Source: Mytilus trossulus (Eukaryota). From it: 64,000 nt of DNA. The stretch covers positions 17,732,001 through 17,796,000 of the forward strand of contig NC_086374.1 of the NCBI RefSeq assembly GCF_036588685.1, read 5' to 3'. Below, piece by piece: positions 7,271 through 54,100 of the stretch. A program made the translations under genes and the position numbers. Below the pieces are notes generated by a model. That model ran no database searches. It was not told the DNA's origin and saw only the letters and a program-made list of their open reading frames with translations. Numbering within the stretch: position 1 is the first letter of the stretch; every line of letters starts with the position of its first letter.

Positions 7271-8200
7271 AAGTTTGCAGTTTTTGGGTTGGAACACACA
7301 ATTATATGTACATAAAAATAAATTTTGGTACACAGTGCAATTTTTTTCTATTCTTGGAAATAATTTTGAAAATCTTGAAAGAAATGCTCATTCAATGTTC
7401 CAAACGTCTTCAGTATTTTCTAATATCAGGGTCAGGTGTCCGCTTTGCCTGTCTCTATTGCTATGTAAAATCTGAGACTATAGAAGTCTCAGGTAAAATA
7501 AGGTATTCCATAACATATCAAAATGCTAAATCCAATATGATTTGTGCTTCCCTGACAATGACTTCGATGATACAACAACCATGTCAATTGATTTGTGTAG
7601 TATTTTAATATATCCTGTATGATGTAAAGGAGAAATCATCAATCTTGACAAGACAAATTTGTTAATCATCAATTGCTTTGATCAGATTTGTTGCAAATAC
7701 GACAAACTCTGTGCCATTGGTGGTTCTTAAATTATTTGGATTTAGAATTTTTAAGTATTTTGGATTGATTTAGCTTTAGATTTAAGTGAAATACAAGTGG
7801 TTTAAACAAAAGTTTCTCACATTGGAGATGTACAGTATTGAAAAAAAAAGGTTGAAGAAAATCCATTAGGGTTGCACGTGGCATAAACTTGATACATTCT
7901 ATATGCATCATTCAAAGACCAAAACGAACACAAGGAAAAAACTAGTCTGAATCTGTAATATATATTCTGCCAATGTAGGCACACCTCTTCCGAGTATTGG
8001 TTTTTCACATCATGAATAAAAATATCTTCCACCAATATCACTATACACTATTTACATTGTTCATCATATTCTTGACGATAAAATTGGACTTAATGTCAAT
8101 ATCATCAAATCATTAAATATTTTAAAATCTAAAAATATTTATCTAAAGATATCACTGTTTAAGAGTAGACAACCAATTGACACTTAGGATTCATAAAATG

Positions 8201-11200
8201 TTACTTTCTTTTCTTTTTCTTTATATCATCTAATTGCAACAGTCTATATCTTTCACAATGGAGATTGTAACATAATCGCCTACATTTTGGATCTATAATG
8301 TTCTGTATCACTTTAAAAACTTTTTCATTTCTTAACATTGTCATGTAATTAAAGGGATCTATGATCAGTTGTAAAATGTCAAAATGTTCACCTTTCATAT
8401 TAAAAGCAGCTAGTTCTTCACTACAGGAATTAATTAAATCTTCCAAAATTGGTTTTCTGATATCTTCTAAACTTTTACACGTTAATAAGAAATGTGGTAA
8501 AGTTTCTTCTGTTTCATTACACAGTTTGCATATAGACAGTTCTGTATTACTTTTAAACTTGGCTCTAACTGTTTGCAGAATGTAACTCCCAGTAGCTATT
8601 TTCAATTTTGTAGGAATTCTAATAATTTCCCTTGAATTCATAGTATTTGTATTTGCAATAGGATGACATTGTCCTGGTTTATATATCAACGATAAGTATC
8701 TTAAACTGGTATAAAGTTTTGCTTGATTCAGTATCTTCTCAATCCAGAATTTTTGAACTTTGGAAGTTATTTCCCTTTTCCATTGGTATTTACTAATTGG
8801 ATTAACTAAGTATTGTGCAGGATCATTAAGTTCATATTTCAAAAATATTTTCCTCAGTAAACTAAACCAGCTATTACTATTAATAGATTTAACATTTAAT
8901 TGCCTTTCCGCTAGTTGCCATTCAATAGAATTTTTTCCTTGTCTAGTAATATTTCCATAAAAAGTTAAAATTTTTACATCTATTTGAGCTTCTACAGGTA
9001 ACATCCCAGAAATCATATATATAGCAGGATCTGCTACTGTTTTTGGTAAAGATAACAATTGTTTCAAGAACTTCTTAAATTGGATATTTAAAGTTTCTAA
9101 ACATCTTCCTCTAGGGATTACTATTTCCAATCCATAAAACATTATCGGTATAAAATAAGTATTCATTATTGACATTGAAGTTTGTGGATCTAATCCATTT
9201 TCGCCATAAAGTCCAACCCCCATTAAACTATATAGTGTCCTTCTTGCTTTCTTTAAATTCTCATCTATTGTTGCTTTACATGAATCATCGTCTGTACGAC
9301 ATATTCCTATATGTGTTGCTTTATTAGAAGTTGGAAGAACAGAATTGCCTAAATTCCAAAAATTTTCATTTACTTTCTCATGGTGACGTGATTTAGACTG
9401 TATAACACAACTTTTTGCTGGTTGTAGTAAGTATGCCTCACGTTTACTAAAATCAAAGGCCATATCAATTAAAATTTGCGTTTCATACGGACAGTTACTA
9501 AGAATGGCTAAATCATCTGCGCAAGTAGGAGCACAACAAGAAATAGATCCAATTTTGCCTCCATATCCTGAATCAGCTAAAATGTCTAAAAGTGTATTTA
9601 TATAGATTTTGTACAAGTCTGCACTAAGAGTCCCTCCTTGTCTTACGCCTTGTTCTATTCTAAAAGTGTCCGATATTTGATTATTCCATTTAACACAAGA
9701 AACAGCATTTTTATATAGATTATCAATAATTAAAATTGATTGTTCCGGAATTTTCATTTGATATAATCTTCTGATAAGCCCAGCATGTTTAACAGCATCG
9801 AATGCAGATTTTGCATCAAGCATAGTTATTATTATTTGATCATTTAACTCGATACATTCCTTGTGATATTCTTCTATAATAAAAGAGCAGTTTAATGGTG
9901 CTGTTCTTTTAGTAAAGCCACGTTGTAATGGATTTTGATATTTTATAATGTCAGGATTAATTCTGATCTTTAAAACAGCCTCAATGAGTTTGGATAATGT
10001 TGGAGTAATTGTTATTCCACGATAATTTTTACTGTCTTTACAACTTCCTTTATTCTTAAAGAGCGGAATTACTATCCCTAATTTCTGTTCGTCTGGTATA
10101 TAACAAAGTCTAAAAGTACTATCCAAGAGTTCTTTAAGGTGATAAATAAGAGATTGTCCTCCATATAATAAGTTTTCAGTTGAAACTCCAAATATATCTG
10201 GTGATTTATTTAAATTTAATAACTTCAAAGCTTCTACTATTTCATTTTCAGTAATACTTTGGTGCTGAAACATAGCTCTACAAATGTCAATTATATCAAT
10301 ATATTCTTGTTCGATCTTTTGTTGATATTTGTTATCAAAATGTTCATGAATAGAATTTTTTGTTAAATTTTCAAAATGATGTTTCCATCCACTTAAAATG
10401 TTGTTTTCTGTACTATACACTGTGTCTCCTACAGATAGTTCATCTATATGATTACTTAATCTTCCCCTCTGTTTTTTAATAAGTCTATAAAATGAATTTT
10501 TGTTTTTGATATTTGCTTCCATTATTTTTTCTCTTTCATCGATTCTATTCATCGCAACTGCCTTGCGACAGTGTTTACGTAAATTATAAGTTGTCTCTTT
10601 TTTCTGAATATAAAGTTCATTCCTTGGATCTTCCGACCGCCCATTAATCTTCCATTGATAAAAAGCCTTTTTTTTCATTGCAATTGCGCCAGAAATATCT
10701 TCATTCATTACTTTTAATTTTGGTTTTCTATATCTTTTTCGAGGAGTTGGACAACAACTTTTTGCTGAATTGAAGAGTAAACTGTTCATATTTTGAAAAG
10801 CAATATCCACTTCATATTTATTTTCTAAAGATGATGAAAAATTATCTAATCCATTTTCAACTAAAGTTTTATATGCGTCTTTATCTATTTTTTTCCATGG
10901 AGTTTTTCCAGAGGGTAGAATATTTGAATTTGAACATTTCAATTTTTCTTTAGCATTGATGATATATTTCAATTTTGCTTTAACAGGAAAATGATCAGAC
11001 ACGTTAGTAGCTACATTGTCCATTGTTTCCATACTGATCACATTCTCTTTAAAATCTTGTTTAAAAAGTAAAAAGTCAATAGTTGAAGTTCCTTTACCAC
11101 TACAATTTACAAAAGTAATACCATTTTCTTCAGTATATAAACTATTTTCATTCAAAAAGTCTACTAAATATTTGTTTCTTCTCGTATCTATTTTACTTAA

Positions 11201-11752
11201 AATATTTTCGTTAAAATCGCCACCAATTATAATAGAGTGAGAGTCGCTATAACTTTGAACGATTTCATGTAGTTGGTCTATACAGTTATAAAATTCTAAT
11301 GAGTCAGATGGTGTTCCTTTACATGGTAAATAAACAGATACTAGGAGTAGCTTTGAAGATCCTAAAAGTTCAACACAGCAAATTCTATCGTTTCCAATAT
11401 CTAACGGATTAATAAAATTGTCAAGGTCTTTTCTCCATAAAATTCCTGTTCCCCCATAACCACGAGGTAAATTGGTTGGATTTATTGGATCTTTATCATC
11501 GACCGCTTTTCCAATTCCACAAATATTTTGATGAAGTTCATTAAGTAAATTCAGTTGAAAATTAAACAGCCAATGTTCTTGAATTAAAAATATATCTGTT
11601 GATTTAAAAAGTTCATCAAAAAACATACCGCATGTTTGTATATTTTTACAATTAAAAGTTAAAATATTAAGTTCTTTCTTTTTATCATCCTCTCTACTTT
11701 CATGATTTAATTGTTCCATTATGTCGGTTGGACACTGAGGCTTGTTTTCCAT
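8201..11752 (-). CDS. LINE ORF2: AP endonuclease + reverse transcriptase + C-terminal Cys/His zinc motif (start may be 11719 or reached by frameshift)
   Basis: APE motifs TFNC, IQEHW, GDFN, IDF, SDHFP; RT motifs LQRGF, LDAKSAFD, GVRQGG, CADD; CKLC..ETLPHFLLTC; 1183 aa without a stop. Confidence 0.95.
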   Translation of the reverse strand: MENKPQCPTDIMEQLNHESREDDKKKELNILTFNCKNIQTCGMFFDELFKSTDIFLIQEHWLFNFQLNLLNELHQNICGIGKAVDDKDPINPTNLPRGYGGTGILWRKDLDNFINPLDIGNDRICCVELLGSSKLLLVSVYLPCKGTPSDSLEFYNCIDQLHEIVQSYSDSHSIIIGGDFNENILSKIDTRRNKYLVDFLNENSLYTEENGITFVNCSGKGTSTIDFLLFKQDFKENVISMETMDNVATNVSDHFPVKAKLKYIINAKEKLKCSNSNILPSGKTPWKKIDKDAYKTLVENGLDNFSSSLENKYEVDIAFQNMNSLLFNSAKSCCPTPRKRYRKPKLKVMNEDISGAIAMKKKAFYQWKINGRSEDPRNELYIQKKETTYNLRKHCRKAVAMNRIDEREKIMEANIKNKNSFYRLIKKQRGRLSNHIDELSVGDTVYSTENNILSGWKHHFENLTKNSIHEHFDNKYQQKIEQEYIDIIDICRAMFQHQSITENEIVEALKLLNLNKSPDIFGVSTENLLYGGQSLIYHLKELLDSTFRLCYIPDEQKLGIVIPLFKNKGSCKDSKNYRGITITPTLSKLIEAVLKIRINPDIIKYQNPLQRGFTKRTAPLNCSFIIEEYHKECIELNDQIIITMLDAKSAFDAVKHAGLIRRLYQMKIPEQSILIIDNLYKNAVSCVKWNNQISDTFRIEQGVRQGGTLSADLYKIYINTLLDILADSGYGGKIGSISCCAPTCADDLAILSNCPYETQILIDMAFDFSKREAYLLQPAKSCVIQSKSRHHEKVNENFWNLGNSVLPTSNKATHIGICRTDDDSCKATIDENLKKARRTLYSLMGVGLYGENGLDPQTSMSIMNTYFIPIMFYGLEIVIPRGRCLETLNIQFKKFLKQLLSLPKTVADPAIYMISGMLPVEAQIDVKILTFYGNITRQGKNSIEWQLAERQLNVKSINSNSWFSLLRKIFLKYELNDPAQYLVNPISKYQWKREITSKVQKFWIEKILNQAKLYTSLRYLSLIYKPGQCHPIANTNTMNSREIIRIPTKLKIATGSYILQTVRAKFKSNTELSICKLCNETEETLPHFLLTCKSLEDIRKPILEDLINSCSEELAAFNMKGEHFDILQLIIDPFNYMTMLRNEKVFKVIQNIIDPKCRRLCYNLHCERYRLLQLDDIKKKKRK

Positions 11753-13800
11753 AAAAAATTATTTCCATGTAAAGTTTTGGCAATGTTATTACTTTGGAAA
11801 TATAAATTTTGTCCCAAATAGTCCCTAGGTTGATTACTTTGTGAATCACAATTTGTCCTTACTTGGTTGTCTGACGCTAATACATCAATAAGATTCGAAT
11901 GAGTAACAGTTTGAGTATTGTCCGGAGACGTATCTTGAAACCATTGATTTTCATAATCACATCTACTTTCTGAATCACTATGACTCTCATTTACAGTTCC
12001 ATAATTATTTATATAATATGAGTTGTGATGATCATAATAATATGGATATTGATGATAATAATTTTGGTAATCCCAATTATGTTGAGAATATTGATTTTCT
12101 GAGTTATCTTTCACATTTTGTTGATAAACATGATTTTGTGTATCCTTTAATTTATCATTGCTTTCAGTAATATTGTCAGATAATTTATCCAATTCATTTT
12201 CAATCTTGTCCACAATAAATTTTGTGACTTTATTCCTTACTTGTACCAGTAAATCTTCACTATTATCCCTATGACTATTTAAATTTCCAGATTCTGATTT
12301 TTCATTACGCAGGGAAGAGTTATTTTGATTTTCTTCCAATATAATAATTTTCCTATTCATTGTTTTTATGGTTTGTTCTAACTCTAAATTTCGGGCTTCA
12401 ATTTGGTGAAGATAATCAAGAAGCTTGGTTTTCTCTTTAAGTTTTTCATTCACTGACAACTCTTTTAATTTCAGACTTTCTTCTTTTTTCTTTAATTTTA
12501 GTTCTAATTGACGCAATTCTTTCTGTTTCAACACACTATTTTCATTATCCTTATCTTGATTTTCTTTAGATTTATCAGTAATGTTTTTGTCTACACAGAC
12601 TAAAGTTGGACGAGGTGAACTAACCTTCTTTACTGAAGTTTCAATATTCAAATGCAAATTTTCAGAATTTTGACTATGTGTTGCTTCACATCCTAGACAT
12701 ATTTTATTTTCTTTTCCCATACATTTTATGTGATAAGATTGATCACAGAATTCACAAATTTGTTCATCAGTATTTAACAACTCTAAACATAAGGCACAAG
12801 ACCTTGGAAATTCCTCCAATAAAAGAGATTGAGCAAAAGTTACTTTGGGTATTACTTGATCTTTATCTATATGTTTTACTGAAGTATCGGATTCTATTCC
12901 ATTTCCTTCTAAAAAAGATTCTTCATTAATCATGTTGACCAAAGGTAAGTTGATACTATCACATACTTGAGTATGAGTGGGAGAATTCACAGATAATACT
13001 TGCTTATCATCTATGGAGTCTATATCACAAATTGAACATATATAATGGTTTGTATCAGAATTATTCTCTAAAATGTTAATCATTTCACTTTTTAGTTTTT
13101 CGCAATTATAGTGTATCCAATGTTCACCCCTATTACACCAGACACTTCTAGATAAGCAATTTCTAGTACATTTAGGGCATACTTTAGGGTCCTTAATGTC
13201 ATTACTACCAGCGGCAGCATTTGTAACAGCTTTAGATTGACTAATCTTTGTATTATCCACTACAACTGACGGATTATGACCGTTATTAATTGATGATAAT
13301 AAAAAATCACATTGCTCTTTAATTTTGGTGTTGAGATGTTTATAGTCTACATCATTACTCATATGCGATGCAATTTTAGAAAATTCATCTATGAATGACA
13401 TAAATTGTTTCCCATTCACTTCAATACGACATGTTGTATTAAAAATGTTCACCCTATATAATTGCTTTGACGGATTACTAACGTCAGCAAATGAAATTGA
13501 CCTCTCAGATAATTTCTTTGATAAATCGAACCTTTCATGTACTGTTAGTTTTAAACTTTGGTTTGAGCTAAAATACTGGTCGAAGCATGTATTGAATTGC
13601 AAAAATGCAGCCGATGAAAACTGTATGATTAAATTCCCCCTTTTCAAAGTTGCTTGAATATCAATGTCTCTATTTGCAGCTTCCTTAATTTTATTCAAAG
13701 TTCTTTTCTCATTTAATACATAATTCTTAGTAGTTTGAATACTCTTGCTGGGTGTATATATTTTAGTTGGAACTAATTCTCTACTTGACCTTCTCGACAT
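11719..13800 (-). CDS. LINE ORF1 with two PHD-like fingers and a coiled coil
   Basis: CPKC..WC..HWIHYNC..CSIC and CALC..CEFC..HIKC..CLGC; K/E/L heptad region; 693 aa directly upstream of ORF2. Confidence 0.9.
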   Translation of the reverse strand: MSRRSSRELVPTKIYTPSKSIQTTKNYVLNEKRTLNKIKEAANRDIDIQATLKRGNLIIQFSSAAFLQFNTCFDQYFSSNQSLKLTVHERFDLSKKLSERSISFADVSNPSKQLYRVNIFNTTCRIEVNGKQFMSFIDEFSKIASHMSNDVDYKHLNTKIKEQCDFLLSSINNGHNPSVVVDNTKISQSKAVTNAAAGSNDIKDPKVCPKCTRNCLSRSVWCNRGEHWIHYNCEKLKSEMINILENNSDTNHYICSICDIDSIDDKQVLSVNSPTHTQVCDSINLPLVNMINEESFLEGNGIESDTSVKHIDKDQVIPKVTFAQSLLLEEFPRSCALCLELLNTDEQICEFCDQSYHIKCMGKENKICLGCEATHSQNSENLHLNIETSVKKVSSPRPTLVCVDKNITDKSKENQDKDNENSVLKQKELRQLELKLKKKEESLKLKELSVNEKLKEKTKLLDYLHQIEARNLELEQTIKTMNRKIIILEENQNNSSLRNEKSESGNLNSHRDNSEDLLVQVRNKVTKFIVDKIENELDKLSDNITESNDKLKDTQNHVYQQNVKDNSENQYSQHNWDYQNYYHQYPYYYDHHNSYYINNYGTVNESHSDSESRCDYENQWFQDTSPDNTQTVTHSNLIDVLASDNQVRTNCDSQSNQPRDYLGQNLYFQSNNIAKTLHGNNFLWKTSLSVQPT

Positions 13801-14563: not shown

Positions 14564-15274
14564 CTAATAAGGTCTGTCTAGTGAACCTTTTAAGTTTATG
14601 AAGGGAGCAATCGGTGCCAATGCTTTAGTGACTTGATGGCTTTTTGCTTTTCCAGTTATACACCAAGTAACAAAATGTTCACAATTACTAGTGAGAATAT
14701 TATAAATAACACGCATTTCCTTCTGTAGTTTCAACAGCTTGTATGCACGATTTACCGTCTCACTTCTGTCTAATCGTCCATACCTATAACGGATCAATAT
14801 GATTTGGTCAAATTCGAAAGGCAGAATTTCCTCCTTAATTTCTGCCGGAAAGCCTGACGTTTTCTCACCAGTGAAGTGTACTACTTTATACGTCTGATTT
14901 TCTGGATACACATCTACAACTACGGCATGATGCGAATATAGCCCTCGTTTGTATTTGACATGGTCGCCCTTGTTTAGCTGGTGTATATTGTAGACTCGTT
15001 GATTGCTTGTTTTAAAGAAATGGTATGCGCCAATCAGTACTCCAGCCTGAAAAGTAGAATGAAATATTCAATCCAATACAATATATTTCACATATTATCG
15101 GCATTATGTGTTATGTTAGCAGCTGGGAATAGTATATCTAATATATATGTTCCTGGTTAGCAGCTATAAAAACATTTTAAAAAAATGGAAAATTTTATGC
15201 ATCGGTTCTACATATACAACAAAATATATTTGATGAAGAAAATAAAAACATACCCCTGTCACAACTGCTGCCAT
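14564..15274 (-). CDS. LRAT/PLAAT (permuted NlpC/P60) family protein, complement(join(14564..15046,15254..15274)), ~167 aa
   Basis: GDHV..YSHHAVV (H-box), VVHF and NCEHFVTWC (NC-box). Exon 1 MAAVVTG ends at GTATGT; acceptor TTTTCAG at 15047, phase 0; hydrophobic N-terminus. Confidence 0.85.
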
Positions 15275-23115: not shown

Positions 23116-26100
23116 TTATAAATGTACATGATCAAAATAAAAGTCTGCAAGCTTATTAAGAATGTTTTGCATTACAGCTTTGTCTGGATAAATTCTTTCA
23201 ATATGGATGTCCTTCTTTGTATAGACTACAAAATCACAAAACTGAGAACCTGTTACAAGTAATTGACCTTGTACCTGAATAAAATAATCATGACTGATTT
23301 TTAATTTCGGTCCATTTTCAGACAACTCTAAACAAAAGTCTGCACCCTGCATTGCGTCAGTGATTAGGTTATCTCTTTGGCTAAATGGACATTTAATTTC
23401 CATAATTCCAGTTACACCATTGTCACATATTTTGGCATCTGGAGTAGCACCAATAAAAGGGTACCTCGGGTTAACTACAAACCCACAATCATGAACATGA
23501 TGGCCAGAAGTTTGAACATATGAGTTTCTAGCTTTTATTTCATTGTTTCTTCCATATGATGTTGCTTTACTAGTGAAAGGCTTTGGCTTCATTATGGAAA
23601 GAATGAACTTGTCATTAATTGCAGCTTTTCTTTTGACAATTCTATGAAAGTTTGATGCTGTTATTCTCTTTTCTCTTTCCTTGAACCACTTTTCACATTG
23701 AGCTTGTTCTCTGGTCTGTTCTTCTATAATGTTTACTTCATCATTTGAAATGGTGTCTATCAAAGTGTTGTATTTTTCTGATAAAACAGATTGACCATTT
23801 TCTTTCGGAAAAACTAAATCTCCACAAACAGTTTCCACTGGAACTATCTCTCTCTGTGAATAAAAGTCTGCCTAAAAAGAAAGGGGATTGTTAAAATTTT
23901 AATATTTAAGGAAATAATTGAAATTATTTTACTGTTTATGGAGAAATAACATAAAAAAATGGTGCACACTGGTTTTTGTCTAGCCTTATGATCATAAGAT
24001 AGTATCCAGAAGTAAATTTAAAAAAAATAAAATTCCATTTTTTTCCGTATTTTACTTATAAATGGACTTAGTTTTTTCCGCAGGGAAACATTACATTCAC
24101 TCTGTGGTTAGAGTTTTTAGAATTTTAATAACATTCTTAAACTATACTTGATTTGTACCAAACTTGGACAGAAGCTTGTTTATGATCATAAAATAGTATC
24201 CAGAAGTAAATTTTGTAAAAAAATAAATCCATTTTTTCTGTATTCTACTCTTAAATGGACTTAGTTTTTCTGCGGGGAAACATTACATTCACTCTGGTTA
24301 AAGTTTTTAAAAAATTAATAACTTTCTTAAACTATCCTTGGTTTGTACCAAAATTGGCCAGAAGCTTATTTATGATCATAAGATAGTATCCAGAAGTAAA
24401 TTTTGTAAAAAGATAACTCCATTTTTTCTGTACTTTAATATTAAATGGACTTAGATTTTCTTACAGTTAACATTACATACAGTCTAGATCTGCAGTTAAA
24501 GTTTTCAAAACATTTATTAGTTTCATTAACTATCCTAGATTTTTACCAAACTTGGACAGAAGCTTCTTACAATCATAAGATAGTATCAAGAGGAATATTT
24601 TCATTGATTTTTTGCCTCATTTTTGTTGAGCCTGAGATTAATAGTAAAAATAGGCGAGACACTGGGTTCTGCGGAACCCTTACAATTTTTTTTATTTTTA
24701 AGTCTGCACCACAATATTTAATGTTATTACTAATTGACAGATAAAATATATCAGTTTTTTCTGATAATTTAATTCTAAATTCTCTTTTATACTGGAGTAA
24801 AACATGAAATAAAGTTGACGACATCAGGCTCACATCAATAAATTTTGTCTATGAACTGATAGACAAAACAACGTCATCAAATCAATTTTTTTCTGATCTG
24901 TTTGAAACTAAAAAAAATCAGATTCCAACTTTTTTTTTTTCTTTAACAAACATATATTTAAAAGTCACAAGAATCTAATGATATTTTTTATATTTCAGGG
25001 GCTGACCCAATTGATATTCTGTCTCTAACAGTGCAAAAGGAGATTTTGGAGAGAGACCTTGCAAGAAAAATATTGGATAATGAAAAGCTAACATTGAATA
25101 ATGCATCCAGGAAATCCCAGAAAATATTTCAAGTTCAACAGAGGGAAAGGTCAATTTTTTCAGCTGAAAACTTTACTAAAGATGACAAAATGTTGAGATA
25201 CTACAGTGGCTTTAACAATACTGAATTTAATGCAGTTTTTAAGTTTTTAGTGCCAGATTCATCAAATTATCCCTTAAAAATGTCAAAGAATATGAAGATA
25301 AAGATAAAAATCAAGGACCAGTTTTTTTTTACATTATGTAAATTGAGAAATAATTTGGACTTTACAGATTTGGGATACAGATTTCAAATATCTACACAAG
25401 ACTGTAGTTCACTTTTTTGTGACTGGATAAATTTCATGTACTTAAGGTTTGGAGCAGTATGTACTTGGCCGCCACGTGACATGATTATTAAAAATATGCC
25501 TGAAAATTATAAAAGGGATTTTCCTAATACTTTGGCAATAATTGATGGTACAGAAATCAAAATACAGAAGCCTTCTTCTCTGCATGCACAGTCACAGTCA
25601 TATTCAAATTACAAGTCTACAAACACTTTAAAAGCTTTGGTAGCAGTTGATCCTAGAGGGTCACTTTTATTTACTTCATGTTTATTTTCTGGTGCTATAT
25701 CAGACAAAGATATATTTGAACAATCGGGATTAAAGAAGATGTTACAAAACTTAGTACAGCATGGTCATATCAAGGAAGGTGATGGTATTATGGCAGACAA
25801 GGGTTTTAATATTCATAAAGAAGTTGAAGATTGCAAACTGAAGTTAAACATCCCACCTTTTGCTAATGCTGGATTACAAATGACTCAAGCAGATGCACTT
25901 TTAACAAAGAAGATTGCTGCACATCGCGTACATGTTGAGCGTACTATAGGTTCTGTGAAGAAGTTTAAAATAGTTGGACAAAAAGTACCTTTATCTTTGT
26001 TTGGACGTGTTAACCAGATTTGGAATGTATGTTGTTTTTTAACAACTTTTCAAAAACCAATTATTCGTCGAAAATAATTACATGTATTTAAGTACAATGA

Positions 26101-51100: not shown

Positions 51101-54100
51101 GAGGGGTCTAAATACAGCACAAACAACATTTTCTAAAAGAACAAAAAAGTAAAAAAAGAATATTTTTACAAAACGCCTTTGACTAACAGGACGTAAAACT
51201 GATGTTCCTAAAACCTGTTGACTGCCATTGACTATTGTCAAAAAATTGATCACAAGATGTAACAAGATGGATCCCTATATTAGTTTAAGTTTAATATGTA
51301 TATATATATATATATATACAACTCGTCTAAACATCAACCCAACAATGTTAGATCTGTAAATTTGCTTTCGCAAATTTTTTGGTTCTTCCCTTGCCGGGAT
51401 TCGAACCCATGCTACTGTGATATCGTGACACCAAATCGCCTGCACTGCAGCCGTCCCGCTAGACCACACGACCACCTGGGCTCTCATTAAAAGAGCTTTC
51501 GGTGGCCATATGTTACCTTTCCACGTCAGTTTTAATCTAGCGGCGTACTACAGAACATGATATATAAGGCATGAAGATGTTATTTTTACAGATCAGCTAA
51601 ATTATCTATAGTAAAGGATCCTACAAATTAATGTAAGATACAGTCACAGAAAATAATTATATTCATAAGTACGTCTGAGTCAGTGACAACCCTACAACAG
51701 ATGTATCCATCGGATCGCCATCAATGATGGTGATACATGGCTGTGTACATAATGTATATACAACTCGTCTAAACATCAACCCAACAATGTTAGATCTGTA
51801 AATTTGCTTTCGCAAATTTTTTGGTTCTTCCCTTGCCGGGATTCGAACCCATGCTACTGTGATATCGTGACACCAAATCGCCTGCACTGCAGCCGTCCCG
51901 CTAGACCACACGACCACCTGGGCTCTCATTAAAAGAGCTTTCGGTGGCCATATGTTACCTTTCCACGTCAGTTTTAATCTAGCGGCGTACTACAGAACAT
52001 GATATATAAGGCATGAAGATGTTATTTTTACAGATCAGCTAAATTATCTATAGTAAAGGATCCTACAAATTAATGTAAGATACAGTCACAGAAAATAATT
52101 ATATTCATAAGTACGTCTGAGTCAGTGACAACCCTACAACAGATGTATCCATCGGATCGCCATCAATGATGGTGATACATGGCTGTGTACATAATGTATA
52201 TACAACTCGTCTAAACATCAACCCAACAATGTTAGATCTGTAAATTTGCTTTCGCAAATTTTTTGGTTCTTCCCTTGCCGGGATTCGAACCCATGCTACT
52301 GTGATATCGTGACACCAAATCGCCTGCCAGAATCCTCAGAATCATAGAATATTTTGGTAACAAGGATTAAGAGGTCTGACTCGGAGGAATAAATCAGAAT
52401 TCCGCATTTTAAAAAGAAGAGTTCATGGATTCCAAAACCTAGTAAATCTGCTACACTGGAAGATGTTATCGACAAAATCAAATTGGATGTTGTTCATCTA
52501 GCTAGCAACAAGTACTCGTCATTTTATAACACCTCTCCTGACGAGAAAAATGCCATACAATCGTTGAGAAACCGAGATGATATTGTGATAAAACCAGTAG
52601 ACAAGGGCAGTGCCGTTGTTATAATGGAAAAAGCTAACTGCATCGCGGAAGCAGTGCGTCAGCTCTCTGATGAGAGATTTTATAAGAAGCTAGACTATGA
52701 CCCTACTTCCGAGTTTAGTTCCAAAATCATCAATGCATTACAAACCATGTACGATGACGGTCACATAGATGAGGATACAATTGGTTATTTCAAACCAGAG
52801 AATGCCAAGCCTGGTCGATTGTATCTTCTCCCCCTAAACCCAAACAACCCTGCTAGACCATTTGTATCCGCAAACGGCCATCCGACTGAGAAAATTTCGG
52901 AATTCGTCGATTTTCATTTACGATCTCATGTAGAAAATCTTCCTTCCCACATTCAAAACACTACAGATTACCTTCGTAAAATGGAATCCATGAACCCTCT
53001 TCCTCCGGAAACCCTCCTTGTCACTTTAGATGTCACTTCATTGTATATCAACATACCTCATGATGACGGCTTACAATCTGGTAGGAAAATATGGGACTCT
53101 CGAAACATTTTAGAACCATCTACTGAATGTTTAGCCCAGCTGCTGACTTTGGTCCTGAAATGCAACAATTTCACCTTTAACGGTGAGCATTACCTTCAAA
53201 TAAACGTGACAGCGATGGGGACGAAAATGGCACCGTCTTACGCCAATATTTTCATGGGCAGATTCGAAAAACAAATTATTGCAGCATCTTTATCCAAACC
53301 TTTGTCTTGGTTCCGTTTCATTGATGATGTTGACATGAAATGGATTGAATCACAACAAAAACTGGATGATTTCATCAAACCTGCAAACAACGCCCACCTT
53401 TCAATTAAATTTACGTATGCAATTTCCGACTCTAAAATATCTTTCTTAGACACAACCACATCTATATAGGATGGTGTCATACCAACAGACCTCTATTGTA
53501 AACCCACAGATAAACATCAGTACCTTTCTCCTCAACGCTGTCATCCCAAACACTGTACAAAAAGTATCCCGTACAGTCAAGCTCTCAGAGTAAAGCGGAT
53601 TTGCTCCTCTGAGGAAGCTGTCACGAAACGGTTACAGGAACTTTGAGGATTTATGACAAAACGAGGTTATAAGAAATTGGACATAGATAAGGGGTTTGCG
53701 CGCGCTAAATATACCAGCCGCCATGACCTCTTACAGTACAAACGTAAGAGGCGCAGCGAAATAGTCCCGTTTGTTCGAACATACAATCCAGTCTTTACTA
53801 ACCTTTCACGTTTGATCCGTGCCAACTGTCAAACTATTGCTAAACACCCTAAATTATCCAAGATCTTTCCCAATCCTCCTGTCTTAGCTTTTCTGAGACC
53901 GGCAAGTCTGAAAGACTTATTTGTAAGAGCTGACGTCTCTTGAAATAAAAGCTGTTCAATTTCAGGATGGTGCAAGTCACGTGGTAACAGACGTTGTCTG
54001 ACTTGTCAACAAATACTAAATACTCAAACATTTACCTGCTACTCGACTGGGTCTGTGTACACTATATTTTGCAATGTAACTTGCAAAACCCAGAGTGTTG

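What the first reader, a model, noticed from the sequence alone, without database searches (positions are those of the whole stretch)
11715..11762. LINE ORF1/ORF2 junction has both a -1 slippery heptamer and a UAAUG stop-start
Seen (minus strand): AAT TTT TTA TGG gives U-UUU-UUA in the ORF1 frame (11758-11752) and a -1 slip lands exactly in the ORF2 frame; a small hairpin GTGTC-CAACC-GACAT follows; the ORF1 stop TAA (11721-11719) overlaps ATG (11719-11717) of ORF2. Known: U-UUU-UUA is the HIV-1 gag-pol slip site; UAAUG coupling is used by the silkworm LINE SART1. Inference: ORF2 could be made as an ORF1-ORF2 fusion, by reinitiation, or both. Programmed frameshifting is not the usual model for LINEs.
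Basis: partly seen in the sequence, partly recalled or inferred. Interest (0 to 1): 0.72.

Follow-up and report, generated by a model that had tools for sequence, protein, structure and literature searches.

The report
Conserved frameshift site in mollusc LINEs
This mussel jumping gene and most of its distant relatives keep the same slippery U-run where their two genes overlap and usually have no start codon for the second gene, so ribosomes likely reach it by slipping back one base, possibly when they bump into a ribosome paused exactly one ribosome-length ahead.

Summary
The signals are there. The element is an intact Mytilus Proto2-clade LINE. The heptamer is the conserved signal: U_UUU_UUR in the ORF1 frame lies in the ORF1/ORF2 overlap of 63 of 73 related families (median 32% endonuclease identity) and 0 of 95 outgroup families; 49 of 66 families with a site have no ORF2-frame AUG before the endonuclease. 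So ORF2 is likely made as an ORF1-ORF2 fusion by -1 frameshifting. UAAUG occurs in 1 of 66 (2.1 expected by chance) and the hairpin is no better than shuffles: both look incidental. No conserved downstream structure or pairing with the 3' end was found. Instead, counting UUU as codon 0, ORF1 stops exactly at codon 12 in 21 of 66 and never earlier; in 24 of the other 45 a Pro-Pro-Asp/Glu sits at codons 10-12. In a separate protein set 22 of 50 ORF1s end FL+10 residues. This is the spacing of a queued ribosome pair, suggesting that a paused leading ribosome is the roadblock (about 40%). A GCCUC motif at +11 to +13 is unexplained. No wet-lab test.

The parts
11719..13800 (-). ORF1, 693 aa from the first ATG; conserved N-terminal domain, PHD-like finger, coiled-coil-like middle, disordered tail ending FL + 10 residues
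   Evidence: ORF1 family alignment; PHD matches in PDB; no Pfam hit
13027..13179 (-). PHD-like zinc finger of ORF1 (residues 208-258)
   Evidence: profile of alignment A2 matches PHD fingers, best E 8e-07; range counted
11797..11814 (-). GQNLYF, member of a GQP(L/I)YY-like ORF1 peptide motif upstream of the slip site; its distance to the site varies, used as an indel control
11759..11761 (-). TAA that closes the ORF2 frame immediately upstream of the heptamer
   Evidence: in 66 relatives the ORF2 frame opens a median 21 nt before the site
11752..11758 (-). U_UUU_UUA slippery heptamer in the ORF1 frame: the conserved signal
11750..11752 (-). In-frame ORF2 ATG overlapping the heptamer's last base; arises whenever UG follows the heptamer; not conserved
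11737..11741 (-). GCCUC motif at +11 after the heptamer; found at +11, +12 or +13 in 33 of 66 families; role unknown
11721..11735 (-).
11719..11721 (-). ORF1 stop at codon 12 counted from the UUU codon; the position is conserved in 21 of 66 families
11717..11721 (-). TAATG stop-start overlap; only this family among 66
8201..11758 (-). ORF2 frame, 1185 aa stop to stop: AP endonuclease, reverse transcriptase, C-terminal zinc-finger-like motif; a -1 fusion would be 1866 aa (683 + 1183)
   Evidence: RT identical to M.edulis_75_LINE, classed RTE/Proto2
7965..7987 (-). 3'-terminal motif and hairpin shared with relatives, marking the element's 3' end

Best explanation
The element is an intact Proto2-clade LINE whose U_UUU_UUA site is conserved across its lineage, and its ORF2 is likely made as an ORF1-ORF2 fusion by programmed -1 ribosomal frameshifting, possibly triggered by a ribosome paused 12 codons ahead rather than by an RNA structure. 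Shown: the site, its reading phase, the frequent lack of an ORF2 AUG, the lack of conserved structure, and the fixed position (codon 12) of the ORF1 stop or of a Pro-Pro-Asp/Glu motif. Inferred (about 0.85): tRNA-Phe and tRNA-Leu slip back one base on UUU UUR, so a minority of ribosomes continue into the endonuclease-RT frame. Inferred (about 0.4): a leading ribosome that did not shift dwells with codon 12 in its A site (terminating, or slow on PP[D/E]); the next ribosome queues 11 codons behind, with UUU in its P site and UUR in its A site, and slips when it tries to translocate. The TAATG overlap and the hairpin of this family are probably incidental.
For: U_UUU_UUR in the slipping phase in 63 of 73 clade-A families, 1 and 0 in the other two phases, 0 of 36, 0 of 20 and 0 of 39 in three outgroups, background 9 of 4539 windows. 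63 of 66 FL dipeptides at the junction use these codons against 6 of 140 elsewhere. Three families carry other shift-type heptamers at the same place (A_AAA_AAC, U_CCU_UUU, C_CCU_UUU). No ORF2 AUG between site and endonuclease in 49 of 66; sister Proto2-like groups have one in 37 of 37 and 39 of 40. Two clade-A families have an in-frame UAG instead, which would also give a fusion. Stop at codon 12 in 21 of 66, none earlier; 2.2 and 32 expected; the third frame has an early stop in 25 of 66. These 21 fall in five separate tree lineages, their 10-residue tails share 15% identity and neighbouring distances vary. PP[D/E] at codons 10-12 in 24 of 45, at no other start from 2 to 15, with synonymous variation. 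Separate protein set: 22 of 50 end FL+10. Queued ribosomes lie 30 or 33 nt behind a paused one (PMC5499558 passage; PMC7397865 passages).
Against: No experiment, no ribosome profiling, no peptide across the junction. 20 of 66 families have neither a stop nor PP[D/E] at codon 12. 23 of the 25 PP families are one clade from two assemblies, so PP is one or two origins, and it may be an ordinary ORF1 peptide motif. Mouse-liver disomes showed neither proline nor stop-codon signals (PMC7397865). Listed papers tie collisions to +1 shifts or to altered, not programmed, frameshifting (titles in the reference list of PMC8915115). 10 of 66 families do have a hairpin of -10 kcal/mol or better at +5 to +11, against 3 of 66 control windows. 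10 of 73 clade-A families lack U_UUU_UUR in phase. The model does not explain GCCUC. In the protein set 3 of 50 have FL closer than 12 residues to the end.
Confidence: 0.8

Rival explanations
1. -1 frameshifting occurs, but the stimulator is a factor (host RNA-binding protein, ORF1p itself, or ribosomal RNA) that binds the unstructured C-rich stretch around GCCUC at +11 to +15, as in arteriviruses; the codon-12 spacing would be secondary.
For: GCCUC at +11 to +13 in 33 of 66 against 0.3% background, in three phases (19, 6, 8), so an RNA-level motif. No pairing partner within 300 nt. Arterivirus shifts use PCBP and nsp1beta on a C-rich motif with no structure (PMC8915115 passage).
Against: GCC is missing at +11 to +13 in 20 of 66, including 10 of 21 stop-at-12 families. 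It does not explain a spike of stops at exactly codon 12. No binding factor is identified.
Confidence: 0.3
2. In this family ORF2 is made mainly by termination-reinitiation at UAAUG, as in SART1, the heptamer being a relic.
For: TAATG is present, with A at -3 and G at +4. Sister group B uses AUGs and has TAATG or TGATG in several members. Close copies keep the junction unchanged as far as listed.
Against: 1 of 66 families, 2.1 expected by chance; absent from the nearest relatives. SART1 needs RNA structure downstream of the stop (PMC10275272 passage); the stretch +30 to +90 here folds at -1.9 kcal/mol, z 0.4. The heptamer, GCCUC and the codon-12 stop are all intact here.
Confidence: 0.1
3. Frameshifting is stimulated by long-range pairing between the stretch after the site and the element's own 3' end.
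For: In the window, L081, L109 GCCUC could pair with a 3'-terminal GAGGU, and L082 shows ACCUA with UAGGU. The stretch pairs with the 3' end a little better than with ORF2 windows (median percentile 0.18).
Against: In 24 families with both ends, own pairs are no better than swapped pairs in seven window choices, p 0.12 to 0.96. The PP families keep GCCUC but lack GAGG at that place. A short pairing invariant on both sides would escape this test.
Confidence: 0.08
4. The small local hairpin stimulates the shift as the HIV-1 stem-loop does.
For: It is the predicted minimum-energy fold; 10 of 66 relatives have a stronger hairpin near the site.
Against: -6 kcal/mol, z -0.13; starts at +17 whereas the usual spacer is 5-9 nt; mean z of relatives -0.68 to 0.13; pseudoknot scores no higher than controls, 7 of 66 against 16 of 132.
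Confidence: 0.05
5. The U-run acts at another level: polymerase slippage, a splice acceptor, or a conserved Phe-Leu peptide.
For: U6-AG resembles a 3' splice site in 23 of 66; one database gene model joins ORF1 to ORF2 across the junction (P0008).
Against: 43 of 66, the window included, have no AG there. Polymerase slippage would not need one phase, yet the counts are 63, 1, 0. A peptide constraint would allow UUC and CUN, and two families read KN or PF. Contigs of two RNA runs cross the junction without a gap.
Confidence: 0.04

Closest known systems
HIV-1 gag-pol -1 frameshift site (U_UUU_UUA)
   Same: Same heptamer and phase; structural ORF fused to the RT ORF (site named in PMC5009743 passage).
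   Different: No conserved 3' stem-loop or pseudoknot at 5-9 nt; host element is a non-LTR retrotransposon; U_UUU_UUG is common (14 of 63).
SART1 UAAUG termination-reinitiation (Kojima et al. 2005, seen through PMC10275272 and PMC2699510 passages)
   Same: Same pentamer at the ORF1/ORF2 junction of a LINE.
   Different: Not conserved in this lineage (1 of 66); no downstream structure; most relatives have no AUG at all.
Arterivirus nsp1beta/PCBP-stimulated frameshift (PMC8915115 passage)
   Same: No downstream structure; a short C-rich motif downstream of the shift site.
   Different: The motif differs (GCCUC, not CCCANCUCC); no trans factor known; here the 0-frame stop or PP[D/E] is fixed at codon 12.
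SARS-CoV-2 0-frame stop codon effect (PMC8168617 passages)
   Same: [quoted passage not shown]
   Different: There the stop is five codons on and serves pseudoknot refolding, and wider ribosome spacing helps; here there is no pseudoknot, the stop is never nearer than codon 12, and the model predicts that close spacing helps.
Proto2 clade of the RTE superfamily (family M.edulis_75_LINE; PMC10294476 supplements)
   Same: RT sequence identical to that family; two ORFs, AP endonuclease and RT.
   Different: That paper's main text does not contain the word frameshift. Canonical Proto2-like relatives (group D) have a +1 overlap and an AUG; the frameshift site marks one sub-lineage with APTCADD/PTCADD in the RT.
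HeT-A (Drosophila) and Dictyostelium TRE5-A
   Different: HeT-A's shift is inside gag. The TRE5-A claim was not found in two papers searched.

Membership tests
Proto2 clade LINE | RT groups with Proto2 references in an RT phylogeny | tested here: met
   Window RT matches M.edulis_75_LINE letter for letter in the published alignment, which Table S7 classes RTE/Proto2; the placement is the authors', not re-run with references
Proto2 clade LINE | ORF1 plus ORF2 with AP endonuclease and RT | tested here: met
Programmed -1 ribosomal frameshift | X_XXY_YYZ heptamer in the 0 frame inside a -1 overlap | tested here: met
Programmed -1 ribosomal frameshift | Site conserved beyond protein constraint and in one phase only | tested here: met
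   63 of 73 against 0 of 95; 63 of 66 against 6 of 140 FL dipeptides
Programmed -1 ribosomal frameshift | Downstream ORF lacks its own conserved start | tested here: met
   49 of 66 with no AUG, 7 more with only the AUG made by the heptamer's last base; the window itself has two AUGs
Programmed -1 ribosomal frameshift | Trans-frame product demonstrated | not testable with these tools
   needs reporters, ribosome profiling or mass spectrometry
Structure-stimulated (HIV/coronavirus-type) -1 frameshift | Stable stem-loop or pseudoknot 5-9 nt after the site | tested here: not met
   no Rfam match in the element
SART1-type termination-reinitiation | UAAUG overlap | tested here: met
   (this family only)
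SART1-type termination-reinitiation | Conserved overlap and RNA structure downstream of the stop | tested here: not met
   1 of 66; fold z 0.4 for +30 to +90
Long-distance (3' end) frameshift stimulator | Co-varying pairing between the post-site stretch and the element's 3' end | tested here: not met
   own against swapped pairs, 24 families, p 0.12-0.96
Protein-stimulated (arterivirus-type) frameshift | Trans factor bound to a downstream C-rich motif | not testable with these tools
   a motif exists; binding untested

The most novel reading that the evidence does not exclude
A whole lineage of Proto2 LINEs programs -1 frameshifting with no RNA structure, using a paused leading ribosome as the roadblock: the pause (ORF1 termination, or a Pro-Pro-Asp/Glu stall) is fixed at codon 12 so that the queued ribosome sits on U_UUU_UUR. 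ORF2 output would then be set by ribosome load and by eIF5A or release-factor activity.
Probability: 0.4. Interest if true: 0.92.

Novelty: new variant of a known kind. Interest (0 to 1): 0.8.

Why it matters
How LINEs translate ORF2 is an open question; the mechanisms met in the papers read are reinitiation (SART1) and unusual initiation (mammalian L1). Here a lineage with dozens of natural variants points to retrovirus-like -1 frameshifting and an ORF1-ORF2 fusion, with sister lineages that use AUG and a neighbouring clade that appears to use UAG readthrough. If the codon-12 rule reflects ribosome queuing, it is a new kind of frameshift stimulator, testable in a 60-nt reporter cassette, and it would make ORF2 output depend on ribosome density. 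It also means that ORF2 starts and gene models in these families are mis-annotated.

Tried and rejected
No genome is held for the window and it holds no second copy. Viral contigs gave no relative. Local hairpin and pseudoknot: not supported. Pairing of GCCUC with a partner within 300 nt: no better than controls. Pairing with the 3' end: not supported. Pairing of GCCUC with host 18S rRNA: untested, no host rRNA sequence was obtained. Rfam: no match. Search for natural ORF1-ORF2 fusions among longer proteins: only a spliced gene model, weak evidence either way. The curated libraries of PMC10294476 were held with long sequences cut, so junctions of other bivalve families could not be read there; they may bear on the counts. 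Han et al. 2020 was not held. Sequencing contigs cannot show expression; a share of low-cover runs was not used. L014 and L042 were left out of the 66-site set (site 368 nt upstream; degraded copy). A first idea that the element is RTE-X was wrong: it is Proto2.
Full report
Observation. All three signals are at the stated places on the minus strand: U_UUU_UUA at 11758-11752 in the ORF1 frame, TAA 11721-11719 overlapping ATG 11719-11717, and the 5-bp hairpin at 11735-11721. The ORF2 frame opens exactly at the heptamer and has a second ATG at 11752. Taken alone the window proves little: two more in-frame TTTTTTA lie inside ORF1, a slippery heptamer is expected in such an overlap about 10% of the time, and the hairpin is matched by 84 of 200 shuffles.

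The element. ORF1 is 693 aa with a PHD-like finger; ORF2 has AP endonuclease and RT. A Mytilus edulis protein is 100% identical over the part aligned. The RT matches M.edulis_75_LINE in the alignment of PMC10294476, classed RTE superfamily, Proto2 clade, 16 members. Contigs identical to the window cross the junction in two DNA runs; contigs of two RNA runs, about 96% alike, cross it without a gap, and none of their listed differences (29 of 32, 28 of 31) falls in 11698-11805; one low-depth contig deletes 11755-11848. This does not show transcription.

Relatives. I fetched 100 more contigs chosen from that list. Of 229 sequences, 36 had no locatable endonuclease start and 1 was too short; 192 were clustered at 80% identity into 172 representatives. 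The tree gave clade A (75, with the window), B (37), C (20) and D (40). Clade A has median pairwise endonuclease identity 32%; 29 members are metagenome loci and 45 MAG loci.

The heptamer is the conserved signal. U_UUU_UUR in the slipping phase lies in the last 150 nt before the endonuclease in 63 of 73 clade-A families (two with too little upstream DNA left out), against 1 and 0 in the other phases, 0 of 36, 0 of 20 and 0 of 39 in B, C, D, and 9 of 4539 background windows. 63 of 66 junction FL dipeptides use these codons, 6 of 140 elsewhere. Of the ten without it, L021 has A_AAA_AAC (among the shiftiest sites, PMC5009743 passage), L005 and L062 have Y_CCU_UUU (a flavivirus-type site, recalled), L003 and L042 look like damaged copies, L045 and L052 have an in-frame UAG-G instead, and L014, L094, L130 have long overlaps with no clear site. 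In the 66 families with a site (63 plus those three, picked after looking), 49 have no ORF2 AUG before the endonuclease and 7 only the AUG formed by the heptamer's last base. B and D have an AUG in 37 of 37 and 39 of 40, clade A in 20 of 75. The ORF2 frame opens a median 21 nt before the site. Splicing, polymerase slippage and a peptide constraint fit poorly.

UAAUG and hairpin. TAATG occurs in 1 of 66, the window; 2.1 are expected by chance. L014, outside the 66, also has it, as do several group-B families. SART1 needs downstream structure (PMC10275272 passage); none is predicted here. Across the 66, downstream folding has mean z between -0.68 and 0.13 and pseudoknot scores are no higher than controls; 10 of 66 have a hairpin of -10 kcal/mol near the site against 3 controls, so some families may use one.

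What is conserved downstream. Counting UUU as codon 0, ORF1 stops at codon 12 in 21 of 66, at 13-16 in 5, and never before 12; from the stop frequency of that frame 2.2 and 32 are expected, and the third frame has an early stop in 25 of 66. The 21 lie in five separate lineages of the tree (deep nodes unsupported, so ancestral or convergent cannot be told), their tails share 15% identity, site-to-endonuclease distances run from 47 to 137 nt, and an upstream peptide motif lies 17-23 residues from the site: the length is kept, not the peptide. The stop is UAG-C in 13 of 21 against 1 of 45 (related families, and a weak-terminator reading is recalled); the window has UAA-U. Of the 45 with later stops, 24 have PP[D/E] at codons 10-12 and none at another start from 2 to 15; background 5 of 8933; third positions vary. 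But 23 of the 25 PP families form one clade. Twenty families have neither. A profile search of ORF1 gave a second data set: of 85 hits of 550 aa or more, 14 repeat my loci; of the other 71, 50 have FL in the last 60 residues, 22 exactly 12 from the end, 3 with PP[D/E] at 10-12, 3 nearer than 12, and 21 have no FL. GCCUC lies at +11, +12 or +13 in 33 of 66 (19, 6, 8), background 0.3%; it has no partner nearby.

Mechanism. Ribosomes queue 30 or 33 nt behind one paused at a stop (PMC5499558 passage; disome offsets in PMC7397865 passages). With codon 12 in the leader's A site the follower holds UUU and UUR in its P and A sites, or has just moved on by one. PPD is among pause motifs in PMC5499558; PPE as a pause motif is recalled. 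Against this, liver disomes lacked proline and stop signals. I put -1 frameshifting at about 0.85 and the leading-ribosome roadblock at about 0.4. An earlier unchecked note on 3'-end pairing in another LINE led to a test on the 24 families with both ends: own pairs were no better than swapped ones, p 0.12-0.96.

What is known. Searches for frameshifting in non-LTR, RTEX or Proto2 elements returned no report of this site; searches for a queued-ribosome stimulator returned none that I could recognise from the listings. These cover open-licence papers only; Repbase and Dfam texts were not searchable. Seen as passages only: PMC5009743, PMC10294476 (plus supplement hits in files 1, 5, 9, 12, 19, 23, 25; files 21, 24, 25 held cut), PMC7846101, PMC8168617, PMC11203168, PMC7397865, PMC10275272, PMC8915115, PMC5499558, PMC4402525, PMC5633606, PMC2699510, PMC7175516, PMC3159450. 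Kojima 2005 was seen only as cited. Unchecked notes of this scan describe -1 sites in other LINEs; they are leads, not support, but suggest that LINE frameshifting is wider than this clade.

Verdict. The frameshift reading is well supported by comparison; the stop-start and hairpin readings are not. It works like a retroviral gag-pol shift site but fails the structure test of that family. New variant of a known kind, with a testable chance of a new stimulator.

Noticed in passing
L191-L224 (group C, 20 families): ORF1 and ORF2 lie in one frame separated by a single UAG in 20 of 20, followed by G in 19, with G-rich bases at +10 to +12 and no ORF2 AUG in 18: looks like conserved amber readthrough. 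Their RTs resemble the RTE-X reference seen, by eye.
   Followed up: partly
L045, L052: Clade-A families, sisters of the A_AAA_AAC family L021, have an in-frame UAG-G in place of a slip site: an apparent switch from frameshift to readthrough.
   Followed up: partly
G001, G002: Bacterial species-representative MAGs hold at least 150 and 35 LINE ORF2 matches, most with intact frames: heavy animal contamination.
   Followed up: no
window 7987-7965; 3' ends of L081, L082, L086, L107, L131, L133 and others: Conserved 3'-terminal hairpin whose arms co-vary; short tandem tails follow, and in several loci (L005, L081, L086, L104, L109, L138) the tail is followed by ATGGC, hinting at a target preference or tandem copies.
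   Followed up: no
L094, L130, L014: Very long stretches open in the ORF2 frame before the endonuclease (1905, 1389, 375 nt), repetitive in L094.
   Followed up: no
window 11797-11814: GQP(L/I)YY-like peptide motif conserved in the otherwise variable ORF1 tail, 13-31 residues before the slip site.
   Followed up: partly
window 14564-15067 (-): LRAT-domain frame just upstream of the element.
   Followed up: no
window 23116-23871 (-), 24962-26077 (+), 52393-53469 (+): YqaJ-like nuclease frame, DDE_Tnp_4 transposase-like frame, and an unrelated RT fragment.
   Followed up: no
P0008: A Mytilus edulis gene model joins ORF1 to ORF2 by skipping the junction, probably an annotation artefact of the frame change.
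   Followed up: no
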